Virus genome (UHGV): UHGV-0371280
DNA: 34,882 nt
Strand: one strand, 5' to 3'
DNA from: a virus
Part shown: positions 2,946-20,936 of the stretch, in pieces
How positions within the stretch are numbered: the first letter of the stretch is position 1
How the letters are laid out: the number at the start of each line of letters is the position of its first letter
Translations under genes and position numbers: made by a program
The notes under the pieces: model-generated
The model's input: the letters and a program-made list of their open reading frames with translations, nothing else
Told to the model about the DNA's origin: nothing
The model's database searches: none

Positions 2946-2960
2946 CGCTGACTCTCCGGA

Positions 2961-3701: not shown

Positions 3702-3708
3702 AGCGTCC

Positions 3709-4679: not shown

Positions 4680-4690
4680 ACATCCCCCTT

Positions 4691-5044: not shown

Positions 5045-5055
5045 AGCGCCTCCCG

Positions 5056-5451
5056 TTATTGCATTCTGGCCAGGCCGCGCTCTGTCATTTCAGCTGACAC
5101 ACCGGCAGAGACACGGAACGCCGTTCCCGGCAGCACAAATGCCACAGCCTCATCCCGCGTGGCGTGAAGTGCATCAGTATGCAGCGTCACCAGTGCCACA
5201 ACCGTGACCAGATCAGCCGTATCAGTCACGGTATCCGGCTGCGCTGATACAACCTCATTTTCATGTCCGGTCAGCGCATTTTCCGGGCTGACAGATGTGT
5301 CCTGACCGGCAGCGTCATCCGTGTCATCAAGCTCCTCTTCCAGCTCTGCCACACGGAGCACCAGTTCTTCTTTCGTCCCCGTCAGGCTGACATCACGGTT
5401 CAGTTGCTCACCCAGCACCTGAAGACGGGCAATCAGTTCATCTTTCGTCAT
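5056..5451 (-). CDS. FI: DNA packaging protein FI
   Basis: From ATG at 5451: MTKDELIARLQVLGEQLNRDVSLTGTKEEL..., about 131 aa as lambda gpFI. The ORF-track start at 5490 is a 13-codon extension. Confidence 0.92.
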   Translation of the reverse strand: MTKDELIARLQVLGEQLNRDVSLTGTKEELVLRVAELEEELDDTDDAAGQDTSVSPENALTGHENEVVSAQPDTVTDTADLVTVVALVTLHTDALHATRDEAVAFVLPGTAFRVSAGVSAEMTERGLARMQ

Positions 5452-5492
5452 GGACTCCTCCACAGAGAGAAAATGGCCCCGAAGGGCCATGA

Positions 5493-6518
5493 TTACGCCA
5501 GTTGTACGGACACGAACGCATCAGGGTCAGCCAGCAGCATCAGCGGTGCTGACTGAATCATGGTGAACTCACGCGCCGGATCGCCGGTGGTCACCCAGTT
5601 TTTCGGGTAGCGGGCAGAGGCGTTAATACCTTCGCGCTGTGCGTCCGCATCCTGAATGCAGCCATAGGTGCGCAGACCGCGTGCCTGAGTGTTCCCCAGC
5701 ACCATCGTGTTGTCCGGCAGGAAGTTCTTTTTGACGTCGTTTTCCACGTACTGTCCGGAATACACGACGATCGCCGTATCGCCATACATCCCCTTATAGG
5801 ACACCGCTTCGCCCAGGTCTTTTACCGCTGTCTCCAGCTCGGAATTAGAGCCGCGACGGGTATCCAGCTTCTCCTTGACGGCTTTGAAGGAACGGAACAG
5901 CGCCCAGCCTTTCGGATCAAACACGATGATATTCACCACTCCGCTGGCGTTCAGCGCGTAGGCTTCGATATCGTCGGTCGGGTCATACGTGGACTTGTCA
6001 CGCTTGCTCCACTCCGTACCACCGGACTGTGTGATGTTGTTCGCCGCACTGCGGCCCATATCCACCTCAACCGGATCGAAGGCTTCACCGGTCATGGTGT
6101 ATTTGCCCTTAAGCACAGCAGAAACTGCCTGCATCTCTTCGACCTGAGCAATGGCCAGCTCTTCGTCTCGCATGTTCTGCATGATGATGCGACGGCGGCG
6201 GTAAGCCGGGTCCGCCAGATTCTGCGGATCTTCATCCGGCAGGCGACGCAGGGTCATCTGCGGATTCACCTCATGCTTGGGTTTGACATATCCCGGCGTA
6301 AATTCAGAGGTGGAGCCGCCACGGGAACGGATAACCTCACCGGAAACAATCGGCGAAACGTACAGCGCCATGTTTACCAGTCCCGGAATTTGTGAGAGAT
6401 AGACTTTCTCCGTGGTGAAGGGATAGCTCTCACGGAAAAAGAGACGCAGAAACAGCGGATCAAACTTAAATTTCTTCTCATTTGCCGCCAGCAGCTGGGC
6501 GGTTGTGTACATCGACAT
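5493..6518 (-). CDS. E: Major capsid protein E
   Basis: From ATG at 6518: MSMYTTAQLLAANEKKFKFDPLFLRLFFRESYPFTTEKVYLSQIPGLVNMALYVSPIVSGEVIRSRGGSTSEF..., 341 aa as lambda gpE. Confidence 0.96.
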   Translation of the reverse strand: MSMYTTAQLLAANEKKFKFDPLFLRLFFRESYPFTTEKVYLSQIPGLVNMALYVSPIVSGEVIRSRGGSTSEFTPGYVKPKHEVNPQMTLRRLPDEDPQNLADPAYRRRRIIMQNMRDEELAIAQVEEMQAVSAVLKGKYTMTGEAFDPVEVDMGRSAANNITQSGGTEWSKRDKSTYDPTDDIEAYALNASGVVNIIVFDPKGWALFRSFKAVKEKLDTRRGSNSELETAVKDLGEAVSYKGMYGDTAIVVYSGQYVENDVKKNFLPDNTMVLGNTQARGLRTYGCIQDADAQREGINASARYPKNWVTTGDPAREFTMIQSAPLMLLADPDAFVSVQLA

Positions 6519-6573
6519 AAAAAAATCCCGTAAAAAAAGCCGCACAGGCGGCCTTTAGTGATGAAGGGTAAGG

Positions 6574-6906
6574 TTAAACGATGCTGATTGCCGTTCCGGC
6601 AAACGCGGTCCGTTTTTTCGTCTCGTCGCTGGCAGCCTCCGGCCAGAGCACATCCTCATAACGGAACGTGCCGGACTTGTAGAACGTCAGTGTGGTGCTG
6701 GTCTGGTCAGCAGCAACCGCAAGAATGCCAACGGCAGCACCGTCGGTGGTGCCATCCCACGCAACCAGCTTACGGGTGGAGGTGTCCAGCATCAGCGGGG
6801 TCATTGCAGGCGCTTTCGCACTCAATCCGCCGGGCGCGGTTGCGGTATGAGCCGGGTCACTGTTGCCCAGCGGCTGGTAATGGGTAAAGGTTTCTTTGCT
6901 CGTCAT
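6574..6906 (-). CDS. D: Capsid decoration protein D
   Basis: From ATG at 6906: [43 protein letters not shown]..., 110 aa as lambda gpD. Confidence 0.95.
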
Positions 6907-6915
6907 AAACATCCC

Positions 6916-7521
6916 TTACACTGGTGTGTTCAGCAAATCGTTAACGGCATCAGATGCCGGGTTACCTGCAGCCAGCGGTGCCGGTGCCCCCTGCATCAGA
7001 CGATCCAGCGCAGTGTCACTGCGCGCCTGTGCACTCTGTGGTGCTGCGGCCAGAATACGGCGGGCCGTTTCCACGGTCATACCGGGGGTTTCGGCCAGCA
7101 CGCGTGCCTGTTCTTCGCGTCCGTGAGCCTCCTCACAGTTGAGGATCCCCATAATGCGGCTGTTTTCTGCCGCAACCGCTGCGGTGATCTGCGCGTTCAC
7201 GTCCGGCTGCGCCGCGCTGGCGTTCTCGCCCTCCGTCGCTTGCACCACGCCAGTAACGTCAGCCTGCGAAGCAGTGGCTGAAACAGTTGTTGATTGAGTC
7301 TCTTTGGTCATTCGCCCTCCTGAGAGACGGGATTTACGTGCATCCAGTGCATCACGCATGACGGTGATCGCATCGGTACTGTTAACAAGTTCATCAGCCA
7401 GTCCGGCATCAATGGCCTCCTGACCGCTGTACACTGCAGCCTCGGTATCCAGCACAGCCTGCACGGACAGGCCGGTATATGCCGACACCTTCTGCGCAAA
7501 CATCCGGCGGGTTGCATCCAT
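6916..7521 (-). CDS. Nu3: Scaffolding protein Nu3 (internal in-frame start within C, shared stop)
   Basis: Internal ATG at 7521, in frame with C, gives 201 aa starting MDATRRMFAQKVSAYTGLSVQ..., matching lambda Nu3 length and sequence. Confidence 0.7.
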   Translation of the reverse strand: MDATRRMFAQKVSAYTGLSVQAVLDTEAAVYSGQEAIDAGLADELVNSTDAITVMRDALDARKSRLSGGRMTKETQSTTVSATASQADVTGVVQATEGENASAAQPDVNAQITAAVAAENSRIMGILNCEEAHGREEQARVLAETPGMTVETARRILAAAPQSAQARSDTALDRLMQGAPAPLAAGNPASDAVNDLLNTPV

Positions 7522-8215
7522 CCGGGACTGCAGTGTTTCCCGGACATCACCCGGTAGATGGCTGTAGGGGTTGCCATCCACCTTATGGCTGCCGCTGTAA
7601 ATCAGCGTGATTTCCACGCCCTGTTTCTCCAGCGCAGCGCCGTAATTACTGTGAGCCATCATGACGCCGATGGAGCCTGTCCGGGCGGTCTGCGTGACCA
7701 GACGCCGGGAGGCGGCGCTGGCAAGCAGCTGACCTGCACTGCAGTTCATGTCGTTGGCCAGCGCCCATACCGGCTTTATGTCACGCACACGGGCGATGAT
7801 GTCAGCACAGTCAAATGCTCCCGCCACCATCCCGCCCGGTGTGTCCATATCGAGCAGAATGCCGTCCACCATCGGATCGCTGGCAGCCTGTTGCAGACGG
7901 GCGATAATGCCGTTGTAACCGGTCATTCCCGAATACGGCTGCAGCGCCCGCGTCCGGCTGACCAGCGTACCGGACACCGGCAGCACGGCGATGCCGTTCA
8001 TGACCTGATAACTGCGGGCCTGTCGTGGTCCGTCATCATCACCGGATAACGCCAGCGCCGCGGGTGCCTCTCCGGCAGTCAGGCTGTCGCCGGATACTGC
8101 ATCCGTCAGGCGACTGATCCCAAGCTGGCCTGCAAGCGCACAAAAGAAAACCCGCGCATAGGCGGGTTCAAGCATCAGCGGCTCATTAAAAGCCATGCTG
8201 GCAATATGCGGGAGA

Positions 8216-8235
<20 letters not shown>
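6916..8235 (-). CDS. C: Minor capsid protein C (head maturation protease)
   Basis: In-frame GTG at 8235 gives 439 aa starting (V/M)TAELRNLPHIASMAFNEPLMLEPAYARVFF..., the lambda gpC length. 20-nt overlap with the B stop. Confidence 0.92.
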
Positions 8236-11916
<3,681 letters not shown>

Positions 11917-11942
<26 letters not shown>

Positions 11943-12462
11943 TCAGCAACCCCGGTATCAGTTCATCCAGCGCGGCTGCTTTGTTCATGGCTTTGATGAT
12001 ATCCCGTTTCAGGAAATCAACATGTCGGTTTTCCAGTTCCGGAAAACGCCGCTGCACCGACAGGGGGATCCCGTCGAGAATACTGGCAATTTCACCTGCG
12101 ATCCGCGACAGCACGAAAGTACAGAATGCGGTTTCCACCACTTCAGCGGAGTCTCTGGCATTTTTCAGCTCCTGTGCGTCGGCCTGCGCACGCGTAAGTC
12201 GATGGCGTTCGTACTCAATAGTCCCTGGCTGGAGATCTGTCTCGCTGGCCTGCCGCAGTTCTTCAACTTCCCGGCGCAGCTTTTCGTTCTCAATTTCAGC
12301 ATCCCTTTCGGCATACCATCTTATAACGGCGGCAGAGTCATAAAGCACCTCATTACCCTTGCCACCGCCTCGCAGAACGGGCATTCCCTGTTCCTGCCAG
12401 TTCTGAATGGTACGGATACTCGCACCGAAAATGTCAGCCAGCTGCTTTTTGTTGACTTCCAT
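11917..12462 (-). CDS. Nu1: Terminase small subunit Nu1
   Basis: 181 aa MEVNKKQLADIFGASIRTIQNWQEQGMPVLRGGGKGNEVLYDSAAVIRWYAERDAEIENEKLRREVEELRQ... matches lambda gpNu1. Confidence 0.96.
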
Positions 12463-12680
12463 TGTTCATTCCACGGACAAAAACAGAGAAAGGAAACGAC
12501 AGAGGCCAAAAAGCCCGTTTTCAGCACCTGTCGTTTCCTTTCTTTTCACGGGGTGTTTTAAATAAAAACATTAGGTTACGGCGAAGAAGAACGGAAACGC
12601 CTTAAACCGGAAAATTGTCATAAATAGCGAAAACCCGCGCGCCTTCCGCCCCGTGAGAGCTCAGGTCATCAGAAGGACCC
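12463..12680 (-). other. cos region: cosB closely matching lambda, plus a variant cosN 12-mer at 12640-12651
   Basis: Reverse-complement of 12463-12639 aligns almost base-for-base with the first ~190 nt of lambda (CGCGGGTTTTCGCTATTTATGA.AATTTTCCGGTTTAAGGCGTTTCCGTTCTTCTTCG...GGAAACGACAGGTGCTGAAA...). The position of the cohesive-end 12-mer reads GGGCGGAAGGCG instead of GGGCGGCGACCT. Confidence 0.8.
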
Positions 12681-12799
12681 ACATTAAAGGCAGAATATTC
12701 ACTCTGATATTACGCATTGTTTTGCTTTTGTAGATTCGCAATTTACGGTAAAAATACTTTTGCTATTTCTTCGTACCATAAATGCACAGGAGTATCTTC

Positions 12800-13120
12800 A
12801 TGTCCATAAAGGTATTCAGAAGTGACCTTCAGACTGAGAGTGAATCAGACTATCGTAATTGGCTTGGCGATAATCCAGACGGATATGTTGTCAATGCATT
12901 GAAGCGAACCAGAGGTAAAGGTAATAAATCTGACGAATGCTTTACCAGAATCCATAGAGCATCTTGCAAAACGATTAATCCCTTGAAACGCAAGATCGAT
13001 AAAACAGGATTCACAACTGGAGATTATCAAAAAATATGCTCAACCAACTTCCTCAATGTTGAAAATGAAGCAAAGAAAATGACAGGTCTGACAAGCATCA
13101 TCAAATGTCGATGCATCTAA
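12800..13120 (+). CDS. Hypothetical protein (AT-rich moron on the strand opposite the late genes)
   Basis: 106 aa from ATG 12800 (MSIKVFRSDLQTESESDYRNWLGDNPDGYVVNALKRTRGKGNK...), preceded by CAGGAGTA 6 nt upstream. Noticeably AT-rich compared with the flanking phage genes. No family recognised. Confidence 0.5.
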   Translation: MSIKVFRSDLQTESESDYRNWLGDNPDGYVVNALKRTRGKGNKSDECFTRIHRASCKTINPLKRKIDKTGFTTGDYQKICSTNFLNVENEAKKMTGLTSIIKCRCI

Positions 13121-13337
13121 AGCGTCATGTAATTAACATGTTCACAACACTCTCCGGGTGACCGCTAATGCTGTTGTCAGCCAAAAACTCTACGTTTCGA
13201 TTATGCCAATTTTGCACCGCCCGATGCCGATAAATGCGAAAATCCGGCGACTATGTAGCGTAATCAAATCAACGAGATACCACTTTCATGAAATAATTAT
13301 CATCTGTCAGTTCAATATCAATGTTGAGAGAGAATAA

Positions 13338-13490
13338 ATGAGAGGAATGCCAAGAGGAAGTCGAGGACAGAGGGCTGTCCAATCAACTGCAAGAAGAGCA
13401 AGACGATCAAATGCCAGCCATTCTGACCAATTAGGATGCCTGGCACTAATCATCGTTGGCCTGATATTTATCTATTTCATGGCTAATTAG
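13338..13490 (+). CDS. Possible small tail-anchored membrane peptide (50 aa)
   Basis: ATG 13338 to TAG 13488-13490: MRGMPRGSRGQRAVQSTARRARRSNASHSDQLGCLALIIVGLIFIYFMAN. Arg-rich N-terminus and one C-terminal hydrophobic helix. Purine-rich stretch upstream. Below the ORF-track size cutoff; coding status unproven. Confidence 0.25.
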   Translation: MRGMPRGSRGQRAVQSTARRARRSNASHSDQLGCLALIIVGLIFIYFMAN

Positions 13491-13500
13491 CAAAGATTGC

Positions 13501-13944
13501 TCATCTTACACACTGCGTGCGAATGTATTGCTGCAAGCCTCGGATCATTTTATCACTGGTTTCAATCCGCTTTCTAAGGGTGAAATAATCCCGTTGAGCG
13601 GTGTCAGTAAGTCTGGGGCTGGTGCCATCATCCACGCCGGAGGCGGCGGTGATTTTATGCATGTCTGGACAGACAGCTTTGACGCGCAGCCACTTACGCC
13701 CAGCAGAAACATCAGCACGAAGACTTTCGATAGTCGCGTTAGCATCAGCAAGCTCCTTTGTGTATCTGGCGTCGAGTTCTGCTACATCACGTTGACGCTT
13801 CTGCATATCAGCGATAGTGGATGCGGCTTTGTCGCGCTGCTCTTTGTAGGCGATGGCGTTATCACGGTAATGATTAACAGCCCATAACAGGCAGACGATG
13901 ATGCAGATAATCAGAGCGGAGATAATCGCGGTTACTCTGCTCAT
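13501..13944 (-). CDS. Rz: Spanin inner-membrane subunit Rz (i-spanin), divergent from lambda Rz
   Basis: From ATG 13944: [39 protein letters not shown]... with N-terminal TM and coiled-coil body. ATGA overlap with the lysozyme stop. C-terminal two-thirds differ from lambda Rz. Confidence 0.85.
13545..13745 (-). CDS. Rz1: Spanin outer-membrane lipoprotein Rz1 (o-spanin), embedded in Rz in the +1 frame
   Basis: From ATG 13745: [56 protein letters not shown]...; lipobox VSGC and proline-rich mature part, wholly inside Rz. Confidence 0.7.
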
Positions 13945-14018
13945 TGCTGCCCCCACAAACAGACTTCACGCTCAATCTCACGACGAGTCATCAGGCCTTT
14001 CCATTGCTTACCGCCAGC
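13828..14018. repeat. Left arm of an imperfect inverted repeat (R 3' end plus Rz 5' end); partner at 14379-14569
   Basis: The first 84 nt of the two Rz genes compared directly show about 5 mismatches, and the final 25 lysozyme codons differ at about 4-5 positions. The arms are in inverted orientation around a ~360 bp spacer (R codons ~21-140). Confidence 0.75.
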
Positions 14019-14375
14019 GTATATCCAGCGACGTAGCTGGTCACATGCGCCTTTGATATCGCCCTGGTTTATTTTGCGAAGAAGCGTCGATGTTCTGAAA
14101 TTGCCAGCACCCACGTTGTAAACGAATGAGTAAAGAGCGCCGCGCGTTGTTTCCGGTATATCGACTTTGATGTACGGGTTAATTTGTCTGGCGACCGTGG
14201 CAAGGTCTTTATTCAAGAGTGTTTTGCATTCTGCTTTGGTATACGTTTTACCGAGCATGATGTCTTTTCCTGTATGCCCGTGACATACAGTCCATACACC
14301 AACAATATCTTTGTATGGTATGTAGCTGACACCTTCCAGACCATCGTTACCACTTGGGCCAGTGATTAACACTGA
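13941..14375 (-). pseudogene. R: Endolysin R (T4-lysozyme fold, phage-21 SAR-endolysin type), 5'-truncated and lacking the N-terminal SAR segment
   Basis: ...[144 protein letters not shown] matches phage 21 R from about residue 22 to the end. Upstream of about 14376 the minus-strand frame is only the antisense of the opposing lysozyme remnant; no ATG or SD. Confidence 0.85.
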
Positions 14376-14378
14376 TGC

Positions 14379-14456
14379 GCTGGCGGTAAGCAATGGAAAG
14401 GTCTCATGACTCGTCGTGAGATTGAGCGTGAAATCTGTTTGTGGGGTCAGCAATGA
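14379..14456 (+). pseudogene. Lysozyme R 3' remnant (last 25 codons plus stop) of a second prophage
   Basis: Plus-strand frame reads [25 protein letters not shown], homologous to the C-terminus of the minus-strand lysozyme, ending in TGA overlapping the Rz ATG. A stop codon lies immediately upstream at 14373-14375. Confidence 0.8.
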
Positions 14457-14569
14457 ACAGAGTAACCGCGATTATCTCCGCTCTGGTTATCTGCATCGTC
14501 GTCTGCCTGTCATGGGGTGTTAATCATTACCGTGATAACGCCATCGCCTACAAAGAACAGCGCGACAAA
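14379..14569. repeat. Right arm of the same inverted repeat (lysozyme 3' remnant plus Rz 5' end)
   Basis: See the left arm at 13828-14018; same evidence. Confidence 0.75.
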
Positions 14570-14917
14570 AATGCCAGAGAACTGAAGCTGGCGAACGCGG
14601 CAATTACTGACATGCAGATGCGTCAGCGTGATGTTGCTGCGCTCGATGCAAAATACACGAAGGAGTTAGCTGATGCGAAAGCTGAAAATGATGTTCTGCG
14701 TGATGATGTTGCCGCTGGTCGTCGTCGGTTGCACATCAAAGCAGTCTGTCAGTCAGTGCGTGAAGCCACCACCGCCTCCGGCGTGGATAATGCAGCCTCC
14801 CCCCGACTGGCAGACACCGCTGAACGGGATTATTTCACCCTCCGGGAACGACTGGTAATGATGCAGGCCCAACTTGAAGGTGCTCAGCAATACATAACCG
14901 AGCAGTGTTTAAAGTAA
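14453..14917 (+). CDS. Rz: Spanin inner-membrane subunit Rz (lambda-like)
   Basis: From ATG 14453: [80 protein letters not shown]..., very close to lambda Rz. Confidence 0.9.
14673..14858 (+). CDS. Rz1: Spanin outer-membrane lipoprotein Rz1 (lambda-like), embedded in Rz
   Basis: [61 protein letters not shown]; lipobox VVGC; AGGAG 7 nt upstream of ATG 14673. Confidence 0.85.
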
Positions 14918-15054
14918 AATCTTAACTACAATATGATTCATTTTGATGATTGTTTCATAAGGAACAGTGAAGTAAGATCTAAGAGGAGTTAAATTTTATA
15001 CAGTATAATCATAATATTGCAGCAAGGTGGTTATAATTGAAAGAATATTTAGAT

Positions 15055-16512
15055 ATGAATACATCTCATGTAAGAGTTGTTACTCATATGTGTGGGTTCC
15101 TGGTTTGGCTCTATAGTCTTTCAATGTTGCCACCAATGGTTGTAGCATTGTTTTATAAAGAAAAAAGCCTGTTCGTTTTCTTTATAACTTTCGTTATATT
15201 TTTTTGCATTGGTGGCGGAGCGTGGTATACAACTAAGAAATCTGGCATTCAATTACGTACCCGTGATGGGTTTATTATAATTGTAATGTTTTGGATTTTG
15301 TTTTCTGTTATTAGTGCATTCCCTTTATGGATTGACTCAGAACTTAATTTAACGTTCATTGATGCTCTGTTTGAAGGGGTTTCTGGAATAACAACAACAG
15401 GAGCAACTGTAATTGATGATGTTAGTTCATTACCTCGGGCATATTTGTACTATCGGTCACAGTTAAATTTTATAGGTGGTTTAGGAGTTATTGTTCTGGC
15501 GGTTGCTGTATTGCCATTATTGGGTATTGGTGGTGCAAAGCTTTATCAGTCAGAAATGCCGGGGCCATTTAAGGATGACAAACTCACTCCCCGCCTGGCC
15601 GATACGTCACGGACACTGTGGATAACTTATTCTTTATTAGGTATTGCTTGTATTGTCTGTTATAGACTTGCAGGAATGCCTTTGTTTGATGCTATTTGTC
15701 ACGGGATTTCCACAGTTTCGCTTGGTGGTTTCTCAACTCATAGCGAGAGTATCGGATATTTTAATAACTATTTGGTTGAGCTGGTGGCTGGTTCTTTTTC
15801 CCTGCTATCGGCTTTCAACTTCACTCTTTGGTATATTGTTATTAGCAGGAAAACGATAAAACCTTTAATCAGAGATATTGAACTTCGTTTCTTTCTGTTA
15901 ATAGCCTTAGGGGTGATCATTGTTACCTCTTTCCAGGTCTGGCATATAGGTATGTATGACTTGCATGGAAGTTTTATTCATTCGTTTTTTCTTGCCAGCT
16001 CCATGCTCACTGATAATGGTTTAGCTACGCAGGATTATGCAAGTTGGCCCACGCACACGATAGTGTTTTTGCTGTTGTCAAGTTTCTTTGGGGGATGTAT
16101 AGGTTCAACTTGTGGTGGAATTAAGTCACTTCGATTTCTTATACTTTTCAAACAAAGCAAACACGAGATAAATCAGCTTTCTCATCCCAGAGCGTTGTTG
16201 AGTGTAAATGTAGGAGGGAAGATAGTTACAGATCGTGTAATGAGGTCTGTATGGAGTTTCTTTTTTCTTTATACTCTCTTCACGGTGTTTTTTATACTGG
16301 TGTTAAATGGTATGGGATATGATTTTCTTACATCATTTGCAACAGTGGCTGCATGTATTAATAATATGGGATTAGGTTTTGGGGCTACTGCATCGTCATT
16401 CGGAGTGCTTAATGACATTGCAAAATGTTTAATGTGCATAGCTATGATTCTTGGTCGCCTTGAAATTTATCCTGTTATTATATTGTTTTCAGGTTTTTTT
16501 TGGCGCTCCTAA
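15055..16512 (+). CDS. trkG: Trk-system potassium uptake membrane protein TrkG (prophage cargo)
   Basis: From ATG 15055: MNTSHVRVVTHMCGFLVWLYSLSMLPPMVVALFYKEKSLFVFFITFVIFFCIGGGAWYTTKKSGIQLRTRDGF..., 485 aa, polytopic. Recognised as Rac-prophage TrkG (TrkH paralogue) from memory. Strongly AT-rich codon usage. Confidence 0.93.
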   Translation: MNTSHVRVVTHMCGFLVWLYSLSMLPPMVVALFYKEKSLFVFFITFVIFFCIGGGAWYTTKKSGIQLRTRDGFIIIVMFWILFSVISAFPLWIDSELNLTFIDALFEGVSGITTTGATVIDDVSSLPRAYLYYRSQLNFIGGLGVIVLAVAVLPLLGIGGAKLYQSEMPGPFKDDKLTPRLADTSRTLWITYSLLGIACIVCYRLAGMPLFDAICHGISTVSLGGFSTHSESIGYFNNYLVELVAGSFSLLSAFNFTLWYIVISRKTIKPLIRDIELRFFLLIALGVIIVTSFQVWHIGMYDLHGSFIHSFFLASSMLTDNGLATQDYASWPTHTIVFLLLSSFFGGCIGSTCGGIKSLRFLILFKQSKHEINQLSHPRALLSVNVGGKIVTDRVMRSVWSFFFLYTLFTVFFILVLNGMGYDFLTSFATVAACINNMGLGFGATASSFGVLNDIAKCLMCIAMILGRLEIYPVIILFSGFFWRS

Positions 16513-16598
16513 TATATGGCTGATTTATAATTGTGAGTTTAATATTATGTTGACTCACTCATTGATCCAATACCTAACTTTACCAGCAACCCCTCCGT

Positions 16599-16633
16599 CC
16601 CCAGTAGCACTGGCTGCTGGGGTGCGTTTTATT
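16599..16633 (+). terminator. Possible intrinsic terminator downstream of trkG
   Basis: CCCCAGTAG-cactgg-CTGCTGGGG forms a 9-bp stem (one G-U pair), followed by tgcgTTTTaTT. The U-tract is set back 4 nt from the stem, so this is weak. Confidence 0.35.
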
Positions 16634-16649: not shown

Positions 16650-17444
16650 ATGAGCGAGAAATTAAAGATAGTCTATCGCCCATTACAAGAATTGTCACCG
16701 TATGCGCACAACGCCAGGACGCACAGCCCTGAGCAGGTGGCACAACTGGTAGAAAGTATTAAGCAATTCGGCTGGACTAATCCGGTGCTGATTGACGAAA
16801 AGGGCGAAATTATTGCGGGTCACGGTCGTGTTATGGCGGCTGAAATGCTCAAAATGGATTCTGTTCCGGTCATTGTTCTGTCTGGCCTGACGGATGAGCA
16901 GAAAAAGGCGTACCGCCTGGCAGATAATCGCCTGCCGATGAATGCTGGCTGGGATGAAGATCTGTTGCGGATGGAGCTGTCGGACCTAATCAATGCTGAT
17001 TTTGATGTCTCCCTGACAGGCTTCATCCCGACAGAAATTGATGAACTGTTGACGGATGTTTTGCCCGGTACAGGAAATGAGGAGGAGCCGTATACGACGA
17101 AAATTGATACGCCTGTTTATGAGCCGTCGGGCGGTAAACCGGATATCAGTGAACTGTACGACGATACGAAAACTCAGGAGCTGATCAGCCGGATACGTTC
17201 GGCGTCCCTTGATCCTGATATTGAGAAATTCCTCCTGTGTGCGGCAGAACGTCACACAGTGTTTAATTTCAGCAGAATTGCGGACTATTACGCTCATGCC
17301 CCCGCTGAAATTCAGTGCCTTTTCGAGGAGTCGGCGCTGGTGATCATTGATTATCAGCAGGCTATTGAAAATGGATTTGTCCGAATGACGCAGCGCATGG
17401 TGGAGATCATGCATGGCGGGGAGGAGGAGGAGGAATATGCGTGA
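16650..17444 (+). CDS. ParB-like nuclease domain protein (ParB/sulfiredoxin fold)
   Basis: 264 aa; N-terminal domain has the ParB/Srx signature ...VLIDEKGEIIAGHGRVMAAEMLKMDSVPVIVL...; acidic C-terminus (GGEEEEEYA). Probably the full-length form of the short Rac ynaK fragment known from K-12 (from memory, unverified). Confidence 0.8.
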   Translation: MSEKLKIVYRPLQELSPYAHNARTHSPEQVAQLVESIKQFGWTNPVLIDEKGEIIAGHGRVMAAEMLKMDSVPVIVLSGLTDEQKKAYRLADNRLPMNAGWDEDLLRMELSDLINADFDVSLTGFIPTEIDELLTDVLPGTGNEEEPYTTKIDTPVYEPSGGKPDISELYDDTKTQELISRIRSASLDPDIEKFLLCAAERHTVFNFSRIADYYAHAPAEIQCLFEESALVIIDYQQAIENGFVRMTQRMVEIMHGGEEEEEYA

Positions 17445-18369
17445 TGATTTTTGCGCCTTTATTCTGACTCACGGGCGACCGGACAAAGTTCTGACTTACC
17501 GGACGTTGCGTCGTGCTGGCTATACCGGGAAAATTTTTATCGTTGTTGATGATGAAGATAAGACACGGCATCAGTACATGGCTGAATTTGGTGAACAGGT
17601 GCTGGTATTTTCCAAAGCCGATATTGCCAGTCGTTTTGACGAAGCCGATAATTTTGGTGATCGCCGCTCAATTTTTTACGCCCGTAATGCCTGTTTCGAC
17701 CTGGCAAAACTGGTCGGGTGTAAATACTTCATTCAGCTCGATGATGATTATCACGAGTTCCAGTTTCGGGTGGATCGCAACTATGACCAGGCCTATTTCC
17801 CGATAAGGAAACTGGATGCGATCCTTTCTGAAATGCTGGCGTATTACGAATCAATACCCGCGCTTTCCATCGCTATGTCGCAGGGCGGGGATTTTCTTGG
17901 TGACAATGGCGGCCATGCTTCGTGGGTGAAACGCAAGGCAATGAACAGCTTTATCTGTTCGGTTGATCGACCGTTCTCATTCATGGGGCGCATTAACGAG
18001 GATGTGAATACGTACACGAATCTCGGTCGCTGTGGTGAATTGTTTATGACGATCGGTGCTGTCCAGTTAGGGCAGAAACAGACGCAGAAAAACAGCGGCG
18101 GAATGACCGAGCTGTATCTGGATTCCGGAACCTACGTTAAAAGTTTTTACTCCGTCATGTATTCGCCGTCGTGCGTAAAAATCTCACTGATGGGTGCCAG
18201 CCATAAACGCATTCACCATCAGGTCACCTGGAACAACGCTGCAGTAAAAATCCTTCACGAAAAATACAGGAAGAAGACACCCTGCATATCAATGGGGGTG
18301 ACAAATGATTCCGTATTCGAAAGTCGAGTCTCTGGCAGCGTGCCGGATGACTGCACAACAAATCGCTGA
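17437..18369 (+). CDS. Hypothetical protein with a DxD motif (GT-A-like fold is a hypothesis), translationally coupled to the ParB-like gene
   Basis: Start at ATG 17437 (MRDDFCAFILTHGRPDKV...), with GGAGGAGGAGG directly upstream and an 8-nt overlap with the ParB-like stop. Motifs IFIVVDDEDKT and FIQLDDDYHEF. No confident family assignment. Confidence 0.6.
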   Translation: MRDDFCAFILTHGRPDKVLTYRTLRRAGYTGKIFIVVDDEDKTRHQYMAEFGEQVLVFSKADIASRFDEADNFGDRRSIFYARNACFDLAKLVGCKYFIQLDDDYHEFQFRVDRNYDQAYFPIRKLDAILSEMLAYYESIPALSIAMSQGGDFLGDNGGHASWVKRKAMNSFICSVDRPFSFMGRINEDVNTYTNLGRCGELFMTIGAVQLGQKQTQKNSGGMTELYLDSGTYVKSFYSVMYSPSCVKISLMGASHKRIHHQVTWNNAAVKILHEKYRKKTPCISMGVTNDSVFESRVSGSVPDDCTTNR

Positions 18370-18556
18370 CGTTCTGGATGTTGATCTGAACCGACTGAAA
18401 GAAAATCGGGAAGCAATGACAGATTTTTATGCGGCCATCCGTAAGGGCAGAGCGAAAGGTGAAGCCGAGTTACGAGCGGCATTGTTTAAGCTTGCCAGAA
18501 AAGGGGATGCCTTTGCTCTGCGCGAACTACTCAGGGTGGATAAAAATCAGGACTAA
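18305..18556 (+). CDS. Small hypothetical protein (possible helix-turn-helix); start may be ATG 18347
   Basis: 83 aa ORF ...MTAQQIADVLDVDLNRLKENREAMTDFYAAIRKGRAKGEAELRAALFKLARKGDAFALRELLRVDKNQD, immediately upstream of terS in the same orientation. Confidence 0.45.
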   Translation: MIPYSKVESLAACRMTAQQIADVLDVDLNRLKENREAMTDFYAAIRKGRAKGEAELRAALFKLARKGDAFALRELLRVDKNQD

Positions 18557-18559
18557 CTG

Positions 18560-19654
18560 ATGAGCAGACCGGACTGGGGGGCGTTGCAGCAGGAGTATAT
18601 TGCTGAATACACCCGCTCCGGTATATCTCCGGTGGCATGGTGTGAAGCAAGGGGACTGAACTACGCAACAGCCCGTCGTTACATCAAAAAAACTCCGAAA
18701 AATGCGCAGAAAGAAATGCGCAAAACTGCGCAAAAAAGTGCGCGAAAAAAAACTGCGCAGACTGCGCAAAGGCAGAACGGAAAATCTCAGAAAAAAAAGG
18801 CTGTATCCGATGCACTCCTGATTGAGGGGGACACGGAAGAAATTTCGTTCTGCCCCGATGAATTCGGTATTTCTGACCAGCAGGCAAAATTCGCCATGTT
18901 GGTTGCTCAGGGGAAAAAGCCGACAGAGGCATACCGACTGGCTGGTTATGAGGGGCAAGGTGCGACAGCTAACAGCAACGCCAGCCGTATGCTTAGAAAT
19001 GCCAGGGTTTATCGTGCTATCAGCTACTTCCGCAATCAGTACCAGAAACGCTATACCGCAGACCTGGATTTACTGGTGAGCCAGTTGATGGCCATTGTCC
19101 AGGCCGACCCCAATCAGTTGGCACAATTTCGCCGTGTTAACTGCCGTTATTGCTGGGGCGAGAATCATCTCTACCAGTGGCGTGATATTGCAGAATTCGA
19201 TAAGGCTGCGGCACAGGCCTCCAGAGATGGTAAACCCGAGCCGGAATATGGAGGCCTCGGCTTTGTTGATAACGCCATACCCAATCCTGATTGCCCGAAG
19301 TGCTGCGGTGAGGGAACAGGACAGCTTTATATGGCTGATACCACACTGCTTGATGGGGATGCGCGGCAATTATATGCAGGGTCAAAGCTCGGAAAATACG
19401 GTGTTGAGATCCTGCTGGAGGATAAGGCTGCCGCCCGGCGTGAATTGTTGCGTTTGCTTTCTGCTGGCGGGGCATTATGTGCAGATAAGCGGCTACAGGA
19501 ACTGGAAATTGAACGGCGCAGAATAGAGAACCAGAAGCTGCGCAAAGAGATCGAAACGGTGGAGGATAATGAACATCCCCAGCCTGTGGCGATCAATATT
19601 AATGTGGTTGATGCCAGATTAAGGAGTGATGAAGATGATCTCTCCGACGCTTAA
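18560..19654 (+). CDS. Terminase small subunit (Terminase_2-like core with N-terminal HTH, lysine-rich linker and C-terminal Cys-rich segment)
   Basis: 364 aa; core FCPDEFGISDQQAKFAMLVAQGKKPTEAYRLAGYEGQGATANSNASRMLRNARVYRAISYF resembles the small-terminase signature. Cys cluster CRYCWGENH...CPKCCGEG. Sits directly upstream of terL with a 20-nt overlap. Confidence 0.75.
   Translation: MSRPDWGALQQEYIAEYTRSGISPVAWCEARGLNYATARRYIKKTPKNAQKEMRKTAQKSARKKTAQTAQRQNGKSQKKKAVSDALLIEGDTEEISFCPDEFGISDQQAKFAMLVAQGKKPTEAYRLAGYEGQGATANSNASRMLRNARVYRAISYFRNQYQKRYTADLDLLVSQLMAIVQADPNQLAQFRRVNCRYCWGENHLYQWRDIAEFDKAAAQASRDGKPEPEYGGLGFVDNAIPNPDCPKCCGEGTGQLYMADTTLLDGDARQLYAGSKLGKYGVEILLEDKAAARRELLRLLSAGGALCADKRLQELEIERRRIENQKLRKEIETVEDNEHPQPVAININVVDARLRSDEDDLSDA
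18703..18768. repeat. Six direct TGCGC(A/G) repeats at roughly helical spacing inside terS
   Basis: TGCGC at 18703, 18716, 18727, 18739, 18754 and 18763 (spacings 13, 11, 12, 15, 9 nt), within the region encoding the K/A/Q-rich linker. Confidence 0.5.
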
Positions 19655-20936
19655 TGTGCCTCAGGCGCGATTTCTTTCAATGCCCCATAAATTTAAAGCC
19701 TATATTGCTGGTTTTGGCTCGGGCAAAACATGGGTTGGGTGTGGCGGCATATGCAAGGGGATTTGGGAGCATCCAGGTATAAATCAGGGATATTTTGCGC
19801 CAACGTATCCCCAAATTCGCGATATTTTTTACCCTACAGTGGAAGAAGTTGCTGCTGACTGGGGATTGAACGTAAAAATTAATGAGGGAAATAAAGAGGT
19901 TCACTTTTATTACGGACGCCAGTATCGGGGAACCACTATCTGCAGATCGATGGAGAAGCCACAAACGATCGTCGGTTTCAAAATTGGTAATGCGCTGGTG
20001 GATGAACTGGACATTTTGCCGAAGGAAAAAGCCAGAACGGCGTGGCGCAAGATAATTGCGCGTATGCGTTATAAGATTGATGGACTTCGCAACGGTATTG
20101 ACGTTACAACCACGCCGGAAGGATTCAAATTTGTCTACGAGCAGTTTGTTAAAGCCGTGCGTGAAAAAACAGAGCTGGCCTCACTGTATGGTCTGGTGCA
20201 GGCATCTACTTTCGATAATGAAAAGAACCTGCCAGCAGATTACATTCCTTCACTTCTTGAATCATACCCTCCAGAGCTGATTAAAGCCTATCTTCTAGGA
20301 CGGTTTACTAACCTGACAAGTGGTACTGTTTACCATCAGTTTGACCGGAAACTGAATAATTGCGAAGAAGTGGAGCAGCCAGGGGAGCCGATTTATATTG
20401 GGATGGATTTTAACGTTGGAAAGATGGCGGGAATCGTCCATGTGCTGCGTTTGGGGCTTCCATGTGCGGTAACTGAAATCATCAATGCCTACGATACGCC
20501 GGATATGATCCGCCTCATTAAAGAACGCTTCTGGCTGTATGACGGGCATGATTACCGGAAAGTGAGGGAGATTTATATTTATCCAGATGCTTCCGGAGAT
20601 TCCAGAAAATCAAGTAACGCAAGTACGACGGATATAGCCCAGCTTAAGCAGGCAGGTTTTAACGTTGTGGTGAACAGCTCGAACTCGCCAGTAAAAGATC
20701 GCGTTAACTCAATGAATGCAATGTTCTGCAATGCCAATGGTGAGCGTCGCTATAAAGTTAATGTGAAGCGTTGTCCGGTATATGCCGAATCTCTGGAGCA
20801 ACAGGTCTGGGATGATAAGGGGGAGCCTGATAAAAAATCTGGCAATGATCACCCGAATGATGCCGGAGGTTATTTCATCGTTAAGCAATTCCCTATTGTC
20901 AAACCGACCGGAAGAGTCACATCACTTCGGATTTAA
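19635..20936 (+). CDS. Terminase large subunit
   Basis: Walker A-like AYIAGFGSGKTWVGCG near the N-terminus and C-terminal acidic nuclease-type motifs (IYIGMDFN, IYPDASGD). AAGGAG 8 nt upstream of ATG 19635; alternative starts at 19626 and 19629. Confidence 0.85.
   Translation: MISPTLNVPQARFLSMPHKFKAYIAGFGSGKTWVGCGGICKGIWEHPGINQGYFAPTYPQIRDIFYPTVEEVAADWGLNVKINEGNKEVHFYYGRQYRGTTICRSMEKPQTIVGFKIGNALVDELDILPKEKARTAWRKIIARMRYKIDGLRNGIDVTTTPEGFKFVYEQFVKAVREKTELASLYGLVQASTFDNEKNLPADYIPSLLESYPPELIKAYLLGRFTNLTSGTVYHQFDRKLNNCEEVEQPGEPIYIGMDFNVGKMAGIVHVLRLGLPCAVTEIINAYDTPDMIRLIKERFWLYDGHDYRKVREIYIYPDASGDSRKSSNASTTDIAQLKQAGFNVVVNSSNSPVKDRVNSMNAMFCNANGERRYKVNVKRCPVYAESLEQQVWDDKGEPDKKSGNDHPNDAGGYFIVKQFPIVKPTGRVTSLRI

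What the first reader, a model, noticed from the sequence alone, without database searches (positions are those of the whole stretch)
16650..18556. Uncharacterised cargo pair: ParB-like nuclease-domain protein translationally coupled to a DxD-motif protein
The two genes overlap by 8 nt with GGAGGAGGAGG placed for coupled translation, so they likely act together. The second protein carries motifs IFIVVDDEDKT and QLDDDYHEF, reminiscent of nucleotide-sugar transferase (GT-A) folds, though this is only a motif-level guess. The pair sits with trkG between the lysis and packaging modules, a classic moron slot, followed by a small possible HTH protein. ParB-like proteins next to terminase genes in phages are poorly understood; candidate roles include DNA modification, anti-defence or packaging-linked nucleotide chemistry.
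Basis: inference. Interest (0 to 1): 0.6.

Follow-up and report, generated by a model that had tools for sequence, protein, structure and literature searches.

The report
Phage sugar-transferase with obligate ParB-like partner
Two overlapping late genes of a Rac-type E. coli prophage encode a sugar-transferring enzyme of a DNA-glycosylating family and a ParB-like partner; the pair is always found together in phages of bacteria and archaea, yet lacks the enzyme that normally prepares DNA to receive the sugar, so its target is unknown.

Summary
Genes at 16650-17444 (264 aa) and 17437-18369 (310 aa) overlap by 8 nt behind a GGAGG run, and both are under strong purifying selection (dN/dS 0.06-0.10).

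The second protein is not merely DxD-like. It belongs to Pfam TAGT (TET-associated glycosyltransferase, E 5.5e-35), has a GT-A fold and an intact R...DDD...ED catalytic signature.

The first protein has three parts: a ParB/Srx NTP-binding domain, a disordered linker with an invariant YTxKIxxPxYEP motif, and an undescribed C-terminal domain (CTD).

- TAGT loci with room upstream carry the partner gene in 140/140 viral and 78/78 genomic cases.
- 79/79 CTD loci carry TAGT downstream.
- The ParB N-domain is optional. The CTD is the constant partner.
- The full-length form sits just upstream of terminase genes (85/100).

So the pair is part of the late/packaging operon. Low-GC trkG is the moron, not the pair.

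No TET/JBP dioxygenase, ThyA-like hydroxymethylase or C5-methyltransferase occurs in the Rac prophage, in two complete small phage genomes, or recurrently in the surveyed loci.

Best reading (about 0.5): a two-component, ParB-assisted glycosyltransferase that modifies phage DNA before packaging, on an unknown acceptor. I class it as a new variant of a known kind, of moderate to high interest.

The parts
16599..16622 (+). Terminator-like hairpin closing the low-GC trkG moron. It marks the upstream boundary of the module (context only).
   Evidence: 10-bp stem with 7 GC pairs, followed by a T-run. GC steps from 34-40% to 47-50% here.
16650..17444 (+). Partner gene (ynaK-type, 264 aa): ParB/Srx N-domain, linker and C-terminal TAGT-partner domain.
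   Evidence: phrog_620 1.5e-90 and PF02195 1.2e-6. PGAP names it 'ParB/Srx family N-terminal domain-containing protein / ynaK'. dN/dS about 0.1.
16650..17054 (+). ParB/Srx NTP-binding-type N-domain plus helical extension (residues 1-135). Box residues are N21-x-R23, S36 and G57-H-G-R60.
   Evidence: Foldseek matches Noc 7nfu, PadC 6ryk, and MxParB and BsParB bound to CDP. phmmer hits Spo0J and ParB. It matches the N-termini of phage DNA methyltransferases: PADLOC MTase_II 2.5e-38 and phrog_498 1.2e-50.
17091..17126 (+). Invariant linear motif Y148-T-x-K-I-x-x-P-x-Y-E-P159 inside a linker predicted to be disordered (residues 137-169).
   Evidence: pLDDT below 50, yet at least 80% conserved across 140 non-redundant partners and invariant in A5.
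17157..17414 (+). C-terminal domain (residues 170-255, helical). This is the part always coupled to TAGT, and no Pfam family covers it.
   Evidence: Stand-alone CTD proteins of about 130 aa precede TAGT in about 24 non-redundant loci. 79/79 CTD loci have TAGT downstream. No Pfam hit. 1195 clusters at 50% identity.
17418..17435 (+). GGAGG-rich run, a Shine-Dalgarno-like sequence for the downstream gene. It also encodes the acidic tail of the partner.
   Evidence: Read directly from the sequence.
17437..17444 (+). 8-nt stop/start overlap (ATGCGTGA).
   Evidence: An 8-nt or 11-nt overlap occurs in 106/133 non-redundant pairs.
17437..18369 (+). TAGT-family GT-A glycosyltransferase gene (310 aa).
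   Evidence: PF20691 5.5e-35, 121.6 bits against a cut-off of 27.5. phrog_842 1.4e-103. PGAP name 'GREB1-related protein'. dN/dS 0.06-0.10.
17437..18102 (+). GT-A catalytic core (residues 1-222), with R14 (17476-17478), D102-D103-D104 (17740-17748) and E188-D189 (17998-18003).
   Evidence: AF2 pLDDT is about 90 over most of the core, with four low-confidence loop segments inside it. Foldseek matches GT-A enzymes 6p61, 9jn3 and 1qg8 and viral TAGT models at 6.6e-21. The named residues are invariant in A1 and A4.
18103..18300 (+). Conserved C-terminal extension (residues 223-288) outside the Pfam TAGT model. It contains GTYxKSFYS and H260-H261 (18214-18219) and is a candidate acceptor- or partner-binding region.
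   Evidence: The Pfam match ends at residue 222. The extension has many invariant residues. Its AF2 confidence is low.
18347..18556 (+). Small ORF (69 aa from the PGAP start, 83 aa from 18305) overlapping the TAGT 3' end. It resembles a segment of terminase small subunits.
   Evidence: phrog_309 8.3e-23. PGAP CDS.
18560..20936 (+). Terminase small (18560-19654) and large (19626-20936) subunit genes, the conserved downstream neighbours.
   Evidence: Terminase_2 and phrog_51. PGAP annotation. A TerL of this type follows TAGT in 78 non-redundant loci.

Best explanation
The pair is a two-component glycosyltransferase system belonging to the phage late/packaging operon.

The 310-aa protein is a catalytically intact GT-A enzyme of the TAGT family. 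That family includes the T2/T6 second-glucose DNA transferase and the phage 5hmC DNA transferases. The kinetoplastid base-J transferase JGT is a structural relative of the phage GT-A DNA enzymes.

The 264-aa protein is its obligate partner. Its conserved linker motif and C-terminal domain bind or activate the transferase. Its N-terminal ParB/Srx NTP-binding module engages double-stranded phage DNA. The same module is fused to phage DNA methyltransferases, and it is required by ParB-dependent phage thymine dioxygenases on dsDNA.

The two genes are translated together from overlapping reading frames just before the terminase genes. The complex transfers a sugar from a nucleotide-sugar donor onto replicated phage DNA before or during packaging. 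The next host's nucleases or other DNA-sensing defences then meet modified DNA.

The acceptor is not a phage-made 5-hydroxymethylpyrimidine, because no enzyme that could make one is present.

Shown here: family memberships, fold, intact catalytic residues, obligatory co-occurrence, conserved overlap, linkage to terminase, and absence of a dioxygenase or hydroxymethylase.

Inferred: physical complex, DNA as the acceptor, timing, and protective role.
For: - TAGT membership and GT-A fold.
- Invariant R14, D102-D104 and D189 (E188 invariant in A4) match the R...DDD...ED signature of tested phage DNA GT-A enzymes.
- Characterised relatives act on DNA: the T2/T6 enzyme (PMC13216743, PMC13390438), phage 5hmC GT-A enzymes and JGT (bioRxiv 10.1101/2023.12.21.572611).
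- The partner is present upstream in 140/140 viral and 78/78 genomic loci that have room. TAGT is downstream in 79/79 CTD loci.
- Overlap of 8 or 11 nt in 106/133 pairs.
- TAGT orthologues are 39-47% identical across viruses of E. coli, Lactobacillus, Nocardia and Haloarcula, and 27% in a Porphyromonas phage. The acceptor must therefore exist in all these hosts, which favours nucleic acid.
- TAGT is basic (median pI 9.0) and the partner acidic (4.7).
- The N-domain is the type fused to phage DNA methyltransferases. It has the same layout and box residues as 5mYOX-activating ParB176.
- The full-length partner form is linked to TerL in 85/100 loci, against 7/29 for the CTD-only form (Fisher p = 1.4e-9).
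- Genes inserted into the module are sugar-tailoring or extra GT genes: GalE-like epimerase, radical SAM, SAM-MTase and a second TAGT. This resembles known DNA-glycan pathways.
- Both genes are under purifying selection.
Against: - No acceptor-generating enzyme exists. The whole Rac prophage and the complete phages c5 and phi jlb1 lack one. So does the Pfam-annotated context, and no recurrent neighbour family fits one.
- No Leloir glycosyltransferase is known to glycosylate an unmodified DNA base.
- The partner is acidic and has no recognisable DNA-binding domain.
- Pyle et al. judged GT contigs lacking 5mYOX or ThyS 'less likely' to be DNA pathways.
- GREB1, which carries a glycosyltransferase domain related to this family, glycosylates a protein (PMC7968844).
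- TET-type and T-even-type TAGTs need no such partner.
- AF2 confidence is low for the CTD and for the TAGT C-terminal extension.
- No complex was modelled and there are no experimental data.
- I could not run a direct TET/JBP profile over every ORF, so rare or very divergent dioxygenases are not excluded.
Confidence: 0.5

Rival explanations
1. Protein glycosylation. The transferase glycosylates a protein. The leading candidate is its own partner, at the invariant Tyr/Thr residues of the disordered YTxKIxxPxYEP linker, in the manner of glycogenin or GREB1. A packaging or virion protein is the alternative. The ParB-like protein would then be substrate or scaffold rather than a DNA-targeting subunit.
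For: - The motif has invariant Y148, T149 and Y157 in a segment predicted to be disordered.
- A self-contained acceptor would explain why the two-gene module works in any host and needs no hydroxymethylase.
- GREB1 is a protein O-GlcNAc transferase.
- Generic GT-A structural hits include glycogenin and peptide S-glycosyltransferases.
- The partner is acidic and lacks a DNA-binding domain.
Against: - The characterised close relatives of the family act on DNA.
- The N-domain is the kind fused to DNA methyltransferases.
- A packaging-protein acceptor is unlikely, because at least four unrelated terminase types follow the pair.
- Tandem TAGTs and sugar-tailoring genes resemble DNA-glycan pathways.
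- There is no direct evidence for a modified partner.
Confidence: 0.2
2. Moron or defence cargo. The pair is accessory cargo expressed for the lysogen's benefit. One version has it glycosylating the DNA of superinfecting phages that carry 5hmC or 5hmU, so blocking their replication. Another has it act as an anti-defence factor unrelated to packaging.
For: - The pair lies next to the trkG moron, between the lysis and packaging genes.
- Pyle et al. speculate that prophage GTs could hypermodify invading genomes.
- The acceptor is missing from the phage's own DNA.
Against: - GC content equals that of the late operon.
- No promoter-like site occurs above chance, and the only strong signal is the terminator that ends trkG.
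- Synteny with terminase is invariant in phages of distant hosts, including virulent or cos phages such as c5, where the pair are ORF1 and ORF2 next to cos.
- The pair occurs in archaeal viruses and in many phyla where hmC phages are not known.
- No PADLOC defence model matches the transferase.
Confidence: 0.1
3. Cell-envelope glycan modification. The GT-A enzyme modifies a surface polymer such as LPS or teichoic acid, as prophage TarP or Gtr systems do. This would give lysogenic conversion or superinfection exclusion.
For: TarP is the top solved structural match for related phage GT-A enzymes. The fold hits here include polysaccharide GT-A enzymes.
Against: - Orthologues at about 39-47% identity, with invariant C-terminal regions, occur in viruses of Gram-negative, Gram-positive, actinobacterial and archaeal hosts whose envelopes share no acceptor.
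- No membrane or flippase partner is present.
- The obligate partner is a ParB-type protein.
- The pair sits in late-operon context.
Confidence: 0.05
4. Evolutionary remnant. The pair is what is left of a TET-ParB-GT hypermodification cluster after the dioxygenase was lost, and it no longer has a function.
For: The family is named for its association with TET/JBP. Here the TET is absent. E. coli K-12 Rac carries only a truncated ynaK; this rests on my own knowledge of the K-12 annotation.
Against: - dN/dS is 0.06-0.10.
- All catalytic residues are invariant.
- The TET-less arrangement is the rule in more than 200 non-redundant loci across many phyla. It is not a sporadic decay product.
Confidence: 0.03

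Closest known systems
TAGT family (Pfam PF20691), including the T2/T6 beta-glucosyl-HMC-alpha-glucosyltransferase and the phage 5mYOX-associated GT-A DNA glycosyltransferases (Pyle et al.). Structural relative: kinetoplastid JGT. GREB1 has a related glycosyltransferase domain.
   Same: The profile match is well above the Pfam threshold. The fold is GT-A and the R...DDD...ED active-site signature is intact. The gene is phage-encoded and lies near ParB-like and terminase genes. Tandem GT and epimerase variants occur, as in known DNA-glycan clusters.
   Different: No TET/JBP dioxygenase, C5-methyltransferase or ThyA-like hydroxymethylase accompanies it, so the usual acceptor (5hmC, 5hmU or glucosyl-5hmC) is not made. 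It carries a conserved 65-residue C-terminal extension outside the Pfam model. It has an obligate CTD partner, which the T-even-type enzyme checked here lacks and which the TET-type enzymes did not need when tested.
ParB-dependent phage thymine dioxygenases and their activator ParBs (O'Toole et al., PNAS 2026, PMC13229309)
   Same: The partner has the same layout: ParB NTP-binding domain, short helical segment, disordered linker and C-terminal domain, with no DNA-binding HTH. The box residues are spaced the same way (N-x-R, S, R). It is a dedicated accessory protein encoded next to a post-replicative DNA-modifying enzyme and near terminase genes. The enzyme has a conserved C-terminal extension.
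   Different: The enzyme is a glycosyltransferase, not an Fe/2OG dioxygenase. Here the C-terminal domain alone can be the partner (CTD-only forms), whereas ParB176 needs both domains. Whether the two C-terminal domains are homologous could not be tested, because no ParB176 sequence is held.
Phage ParB-domain-DNA methyltransferase fusions (ParB-CTPase fold survey, PMC12704722; PADLOC MTase_II; phrog_498)
   Same: The N-terminal 140 residues match the N-termini of these fusions far better (E 1e-38 to 1e-50) than they match partition ParBs (E 1e-6). Both are enriched in prophages. Both pair a ParB module with a DNA-modifying catalytic unit.
   Different: Here the catalytic unit is a separate polypeptide joined through a CTD adaptor, and the chemistry is glycosyl transfer rather than methyl transfer.
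Chromosome and plasmid partition ParB/Spo0J/Noc (CTP-dependent DNA clamps)
   Same: The fold of the N-terminal domain and the conserved Box II arginine (G57-H-G-R60).
   Different: It has no HTH parS-binding domain, no canonical dimerisation domain by sequence and no ParA partner. The catalytic Glu of GERR is replaced by His. It lies in a late-operon context. It is not a partition protein.

Membership tests
TAGT (Pfam PF20691, TET-associated glycosyltransferase) | Profile match above the curated gathering score | tested here: met
   121.6 bits against a cut-off of 27.5, E 5.5e-35, residues 8-222. phrog_842 1.4e-103. Top BFVD structural matches are TAGT proteins, at 6.6e-21.
TAGT (Pfam PF20691, TET-associated glycosyltransferase) | GT-A fold with the R...DDD...ED(Y/F) active-site signature | tested here: met
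   The AF2 core has pLDDT of about 90 over most of residues 1-215. Foldseek matches GT-A enzymes. R14, D102-D104 and D189 are invariant in A1 and A4; E188 is invariant in A4 only. The motif is as described.
TAGT (Pfam PF20691, TET-associated glycosyltransferase) | Genomic association with a TET/JBP (5mYOX) dioxygenase or a ThyA-like hydroxymethylase that supplies the acceptor | tested here: not met
   None in the whole Rac prophage. None in complete phages c5 and phi jlb1. No PF12851 within 8 kb in Pfam-annotated contigs. No recurrent candidate family in 143 non-redundant loci.
TAGT (Pfam PF20691, TET-associated glycosyltransferase) | Transfers a sugar to hydroxymethylpyrimidine, or to glycosylated hydroxymethylpyrimidine, in DNA | not testable with these tools
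   Needs nucleoside LC-MS of DNA after expression.
ParB-CTPase fold / ParB N-terminal domain (PF02195) | Sequence and structural match to the ParB/Srx N-domain | tested here: met
   PF02195 at 28.9 bits against 26.3, which is marginal. Spo0J and ParB by phmmer. Foldseek matches Noc, PadC, and MxParB and BsParB bound to CDP at 1e-5 to 1e-4.
ParB-CTPase fold / ParB N-terminal domain (PF02195) | Nucleotide-binding box residues (Box I Q/N-x-R; Box II GxxR arginine) | tested here: inconclusive
   N21 and G57-x-G59-R60 are invariant in A5 and R23 is mostly conserved. The GERR Glu and the first Arg are replaced by His and Gly (H58 nearly invariant). NTP binding itself was not tested.
Partition ParB (ParABS systems) | HTH parS-binding domain, C-terminal dimerisation domain and a ParA partner | tested here: not met
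   TIGR00180 scores only 38.5 against a cut-off of 58.45 and covers the N-domain only. No HTH or ParB-C Pfam hit. No ParA gene in the prophage.
5mYOX-activating phage ParBs (O'Toole et al. 2026) | NBD, short helical segment, disordered linker and CTD, with no DNA-binding domain | tested here: met
   In the AF2 model, residues 1-95 are the NBD, helices span 103-134, residues 137-169 are disordered and the CTD at 172-254 is helical.
5mYOX-activating phage ParBs (O'Toole et al. 2026) | Encoded next to, and required by, a 5-methylpyrimidine dioxygenase | tested here: not met
   The downstream gene is TAGT in every locus examined. No dioxygenase was found.
Phage moron (lysogenic-conversion cargo) | Atypical composition and autonomous promoter and terminator, inserted between conserved modules | tested here: not met
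   The pair has 47-50% GC like the packaging genes, and no promoter-like excess. Synteny with terminase is conserved. trkG, at 34-40% GC with its own terminator hairpin, does meet the definition.

The most novel reading that the evidence does not exclude
The CTD/ParB-TAGT pair installs a sugar directly on DNA that has had no prior hydroxymethylation. The site could be a canonical base, the backbone or a DNA end. That would be a previously unknown kind of post-replicative DNA glycosylation. It would be carried by a portable two-gene module present in E. coli Rac-type prophages and in viruses of many bacterial phyla and archaea. The undescribed C-terminal domain would be the adaptor that makes the chemistry or the substrate access possible.
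Probability: 0.2. Interest if true: 0.85.

Novelty: new variant of a known kind. Interest (0 to 1): 0.6.

Why it matters
All known phage DNA glycosylation starts from a hydroxyl group installed by a dedicated enzyme, giving 5hmC, 5hmU or 5hoC. This module keeps an intact DNA-type glycosyltransferase under strong selection, always with a dedicated partner and usually next to the packaging genes, but has no such enzyme.

Two outcomes are possible. Either there is an unrecognised acceptor, which would mean a new DNA modification or a new protein glycosylation linked to packaging. Or ParB-type adaptors regulate a wider range of DNA-modifying enzymes than the dioxygenases shown in 2026.

The module is in about one in six to one in three complete E. 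coli genomes, within the well-studied Rac prophage lineage. The question can therefore be tested directly with standard genetics and nucleoside mass spectrometry.

The result also corrects two annotations. 'Partition protein/nuclease' and 'beta-glucosyl-HMC-alpha-glucosyltransferase' are both likely to mislead.

Tried and rejected
1. PxYEP motif. This motif occurs in the N-terminal extension of the T-even-type TAGT of Aeromonas phage Ah1 and looked like the partner's linker motif fused in cis. Aligning four homologues showed it is not conserved, so it is a chance match.

2. Direct TET/JBP profile scan. I had no seed sequence or offline Pfam model, and the supplementary files of the 2026 paper are not held. 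I replaced the scan with four checks:
- Pfam-annotated contigs.
- Complete annotated phage genomes.
- Clustering of 2378 neighbour ORFs, followed by Pfam scans of recurrent families and of genes flanking or inserted in the module.
- The whole Rac prophage annotation.
Rare or very divergent dioxygenases are therefore not formally excluded.

3. Iyer et al. 2013 (NAR), which defined TAGT, could not be read by DOI, PMC id or PMID. What I say about it comes from citing papers and my own memory.

I used PDB and BFVD instead.

5. CTD alignment A6, which included the divergent Porphyromonas sequence, gave no searchable pattern. A narrower alignment, A7, worked.

6. Sequence search of TAGT against solved structures found nothing meaningful.

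7. The PADLOC defence models gave no hit for the transferase. The only hit for the partner was a methyltransferase N-terminus.

8. The 'partition ParB' and 'nuclease' readings were rejected for lack of an HTH domain, a ParA partner or nuclease features.

9. No complex model could be made.
Full report
**1. What is in the sequence**

The window from about 14.4 kb rightwards is the late region of a Rac-type lambdoid prophage of E. coli. The gene order is:
- Rz/Rz1, 14441-14917
- trkG, 15037-16512
- a 264-aa gene, 16650-17444
- a 310-aa gene, 17437-18369
- a small ORF, 18305/18347-18556
- terminase small subunit, 18560-19654
- terminase large subunit, 19626-20936
- portal, from 20939

The first gene stops at TGA 17442-17444 and the second starts at ATG 17437, an 8-nt overlap. 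The run GGGGAGGAGGAGGAGGAA at 17418-17435 puts several GGAGG copies 3-9 nt ahead of the ATG.

The same 1.9-kb segment occurs at 95-100% identity in 867 (full length) to 1580 of 5426 complete E. coli genomes. There it is annotated 'ynaK: ParB/Srx family N-terminal domain-containing protein' and 'GREB1-related protein' or 'hypothetical protein'. Pairwise dN/dS between E. coli variants is 0.09-0.10 for the first gene and 0.06-0.10 for the second.

**2. The second protein**

It matches Pfam PF20691, TAGT (TET-associated glycosyltransferase), at E 5.5e-35 (121.6 bits; cut-off 27.5) over residues 8-222. It matches PHROG 842 at 1.4e-103.

An AlphaFold2 model built on 25 homologues has a mostly confident core, with pLDDT of about 90 over residues 1-215 apart from four low-confidence loop segments. 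The core superposes on GT-A glycosyltransferases such as 6p61, AvpGT 9jn3 and SpsA 1qg8 (E about 3e-5). Its best viral matches are other TAGT proteins (6.6e-21).

R14, D68, D102-D103-D104, D189 and H260-H261 are invariant in both alignments, and E188 is invariant in A4. The alignments reach a Porphyromonas phage (27% identity) and the archaeal halovirus HHTV-2 (41%). This is the R...DDD...ED signature described for experimentally tested phage DNA GT-A enzymes (bioRxiv 10.1101/2023.12.21.572611).

PF20691 includes the T2/T6 enzyme that adds the second glucose to glucosyl-5hmC in DNA (PMC13216743, PMC13390438). The base-J transferase JGT is a structural relative of the phage GT-A DNA enzymes. 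GREB1 carries a related glycosyltransferase domain.

A further conserved segment, residues 223-288, contains GTYxKSFYS and the HH pair. It lies outside the Pfam model and was modelled with low confidence.

**3. The first protein**

Only the N-terminal 95 residues reach Pfam ParB_N, and marginally. Structurally, residues 1-135 match the NTP-binding domains of Noc, PadC and ParB.

This N-domain is far closer to the N-termini of phage DNA methyltransferases than to partition ParBs. It matches PADLOC MTase_II at 2.5e-38 and phrog_498 at 1.2e-50.

The model then shows, in order:
- helices at 103-134;
- a disordered stretch at 137-169, which nevertheless carries the invariant motif Y148-T-x-K-I-x-x-P-x-Y-E-P159;
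- a helical C-terminal domain (CTD) at 172-254.

This layout (NBD, short helical piece, unstructured linker, CTD, no DNA-binding domain) is the one reported for ParB176, the activator of a phage thymine dioxygenase. So is the spacing of N21-x-R23, S36 and R60 (PMC13229309). The CTD has no Pfam family.

**4. Co-occurrence**

I collected TAGT-encoding loci from IMG/VR with three differently anchored alignments. With loci already held, that gave 238 loci, or 143 after removing transferases more than 90% identical.

- Every locus with room upstream (140/140) has a homologue of the first gene on the same strand.
- In 133 it is directly adjacent.
- The stop/start overlap is 8 nt in 50 pairs and 11 nt in 56.
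- In 80 loci from one-genome-per-species bacterial and archaeal genomes, 78/78 with room have the partner. These span Bacteroidota, Bacillota, Ignavibacteria, Kiritimatiellae, Alphaproteobacteria, candidate phyla and archaeal MAGs.

About 24 non-redundant partners are only about 130 aa long and consist of the linker motif plus CTD, with no ParB N-domain. An example lies in Vibrio jumbo phage pv27.

The CTD is also the best-conserved part of the protein across 140 partners.

Starting instead from the CTD, 79/79 loci carry TAGT downstream, 74 of them adjacent. The CTD family has 1195 clusters at 50% identity in 1.84 billion representatives, almost always at the C-terminus.

The constant unit is therefore CTD plus TAGT. 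The ParB N-domain is an add-on present in roughly 80%.

**5. Context**

The full-length form is followed by a large terminase gene within 4 kb in 85 of 100 loci with room. The CTD-only form is in 7 of 29 (Fisher p = 1.4e-9). CTD-only pairs mostly sit in replication modules of larger phages.

The order partner, TAGT, terS/terL, portal holds for several unrelated terminase types. It also holds in cultured phages:
- L. gasseri phi jlb1;
- L. delbrueckii c5, where the pair are ORF1 and ORF2 beside cos;
- Nocardia NTR1, where terL follows TAGT directly with no annotated terS;
- Porphyromonas phage005b;
- halovirus HHTV-2, where terL lies about 2.9 kb further downstream.

In the window the pair has the GC content of the packaging genes (47-50%). 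trkG is at 34-40% and ends in a strong terminator-like hairpin at 16599-16622. trkG is the moron. The pair belongs to the late operon.

**6. The missing enzyme**

Known TAGT-type pathways need a hydroxyl acceptor made by a TET/JBP dioxygenase, usually with a C5-methyltransferase, or by a ThyA-like enzyme. None is present.

- The complete Rac prophage (int to tail) in NZ_CP104117 contains no dioxygenase, hydroxymethylase or DNA methyltransferase.
- The complete genomes of c5 (31.8 kb) and phi jlb1 (38.3 kb) have none. Their only sizeable unknowns are negative: c5 ORF25 has no Pfam match, and the 1.4-kb gap in jlb1 has no ORF of 80 aa or more.
- Contigs with precomputed Pfam labels show no PF12851 within 8 kb.
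- Clustering 2378 neighbour ORFs found no recurrent family beyond terminases, portals and replication proteins.
- Single genes inserted between partner and TAGT are a radical-SAM enzyme, a SAM methyltransferase-like protein, GalE-like NAD epimerases or a second TAGT. These are sugar-tailoring or chain-extending functions, not base-activating ones.

Pyle et al. noted that about 65% of their GT contigs lacked 5mYOX or ThyS, and they set those contigs aside.

**7. Interpretation**

I commit to a two-component glycosyltransferase of the late operon. The CTD and linker of the partner bind or activate TAGT. Where present, the ParB N-domain provides NTP-gated engagement of dsDNA, by analogy with ParB-dependent dioxygenases and ParB-methyltransferase fusions. 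The target is replicated phage DNA before packaging (confidence about 0.5).

The strongest arguments for DNA are:
- the activities of the characterised relatives;
- the kind of N-domain;
- the basic transferase (median pI 9.0) paired with an acidic partner (4.7);
- the terminase linkage;
- the resemblance of module variants to DNA-glycan clusters;
- the fact that orthologues at about 39-47% identity work in viruses of hosts as different as E. coli, Lactobacillus, Nocardia and Haloarcula. The acceptor must therefore be universal.

The main weakness is chemical. Without a hydroxymethyl or hydroxy base there is no precedent for the acceptor.

The chief rival (0.2) is that the acceptor is a protein, most attractively the partner's own invariant Tyr/Thr-containing linker. 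Moron or defence cargo (0.1), envelope glycan modification (0.05) and a decaying remnant (0.03) fit the data poorly.

**8. Comparison with what is known, and novelty**

Membership of the TAGT family and of the ParB/Srx fold is established. Membership of the 'TET-associated' pathway fails on its defining genomic feature. Membership of partition ParBs fails on domain content.

ParB genes near phage TET/GT/terminase clusters were noted earlier (Burke et al., PMC8256090, citing Aravind and co-workers). A ParB-dependent dioxygenase was demonstrated in 2026.

I found no description of the following in the searchable literature:
- a TET-less, obligately partnered TAGT subfamily;
- the identification of the CTD rather than the ParB domain as the constant partner;
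- its near-universal placement before terminase genes.

I could not read Iyer et al. 2013, which may show such neighbourhoods. I therefore rate this a new variant of a known kind, with interest 0.6. It is not a new family. It does pose a sharp question, what is glycosylated, that is directly testable in a common E. coli prophage.

**9. Limits**

- There are no experimental data.
- No model of the complex was made.
- AF2 confidence is low for the CTD and for the transferase C-terminal extension.
- The locus surveys depend on conserved peptide patterns and return the best 80 matches per scan, so they sample this subfamily rather than all TAGTs.
- The absence of a dioxygenase rests on annotation, Pfam scans of selected ORFs and family clustering. 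It does not rest on an exhaustive profile search.

Noticed in passing
window 1-14453 (junction at about 14378/14379): The left 14.4 kb is the structural and late region of a different, lambda-like prophage on the minus strand (tape measure, S49 protease, portal, terminase, lysozyme). Rac-like sequence begins at 14379, inside the 3' end of the rrrD lysozyme gene. The ORF at 13941-14453 (-) is a chimera. None of 5426 complete E. coli genomes contains this junction. It is either a rearrangement between two prophages or an assembly chimera.
   Followed up: partly
window 15037-16622: trkG is a typical moron. Its GC is 34-40% against about 50% in the flanks, and it is followed by a 10-bp-stem terminator-like hairpin at 16599-16622.
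   Followed up: yes
window 18305-18556: The small ORF overlapping the 3' end of the transferase matches positions 145-218 of a terminase small-subunit profile (phrog_309, 8.3e-23). The E. coli transferase has a lineage-specific tail of about 22 residues that reads into this ORF. Relatives in Klebsiella and Salmonella stop about 20 residues earlier.
   Followed up: partly
L009 8459-8878; L144 3952-4344; L110 35-418 and about 20 other loci: Stand-alone partner proteins of about 130 aa consist of the linker motif plus CTD only, with no ParB N-domain. They sit mostly in replication modules of larger phages, including the 191-kb Vibrio phage pv27.
   Followed up: yes
L188 936-1904; L144 4334-5185; L112 9126-10010; L110 434-1456; L154 4921-5940; L215 6105-7082; L096, L114, L284, L295, L297: Module variants carry an extra gene between or beside the pair. 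These are a radical-SAM enzyme, SAM methyltransferase-like proteins, GalE-like NAD epimerases (one epimerase family is in 9 loci) or a second TAGT paralogue. This suggests tailored or two-sugar glycans.
   Followed up: partly
L007 11350-12746 (Lactobacillus phage phi jlb1): A 1.4-kb stretch with no ORF of 80 aa or more lies immediately upstream of the ParB-TAGT-terminase block. It may hold the packaging site or a non-coding RNA.
   Followed up: no
P0266 (433 aa): This partner homologue has two tandem ParB N-domains before the CTD.
   Followed up: no
L130 8141-9361 and 11478-12737: A TnpB/Cas12f-like gene and an RRXRR-HNH gene flank a CTD-TAGT pair on a 192-kb viral contig.
   Followed up: no
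phage records NC_024206, NC_019449, NC_021340, PP754928 and others: Public annotations call the transferase 'beta-glucosyl-HMC-alpha-glucosyltransferase' and the partner 'ParB-like partition protein/nuclease'. These names are carried over from PHROG labels. The phages concerned have no hydroxymethylcytosine pathway.
   Followed up: yes
window 14441-14917 and 14673-14858: An Rz spanin gene has an embedded +1-frame Rz1-like lipoprotein ORF ([20 protein letters not shown]...). This is the ordinary lambdoid arrangement.
   Followed up: no
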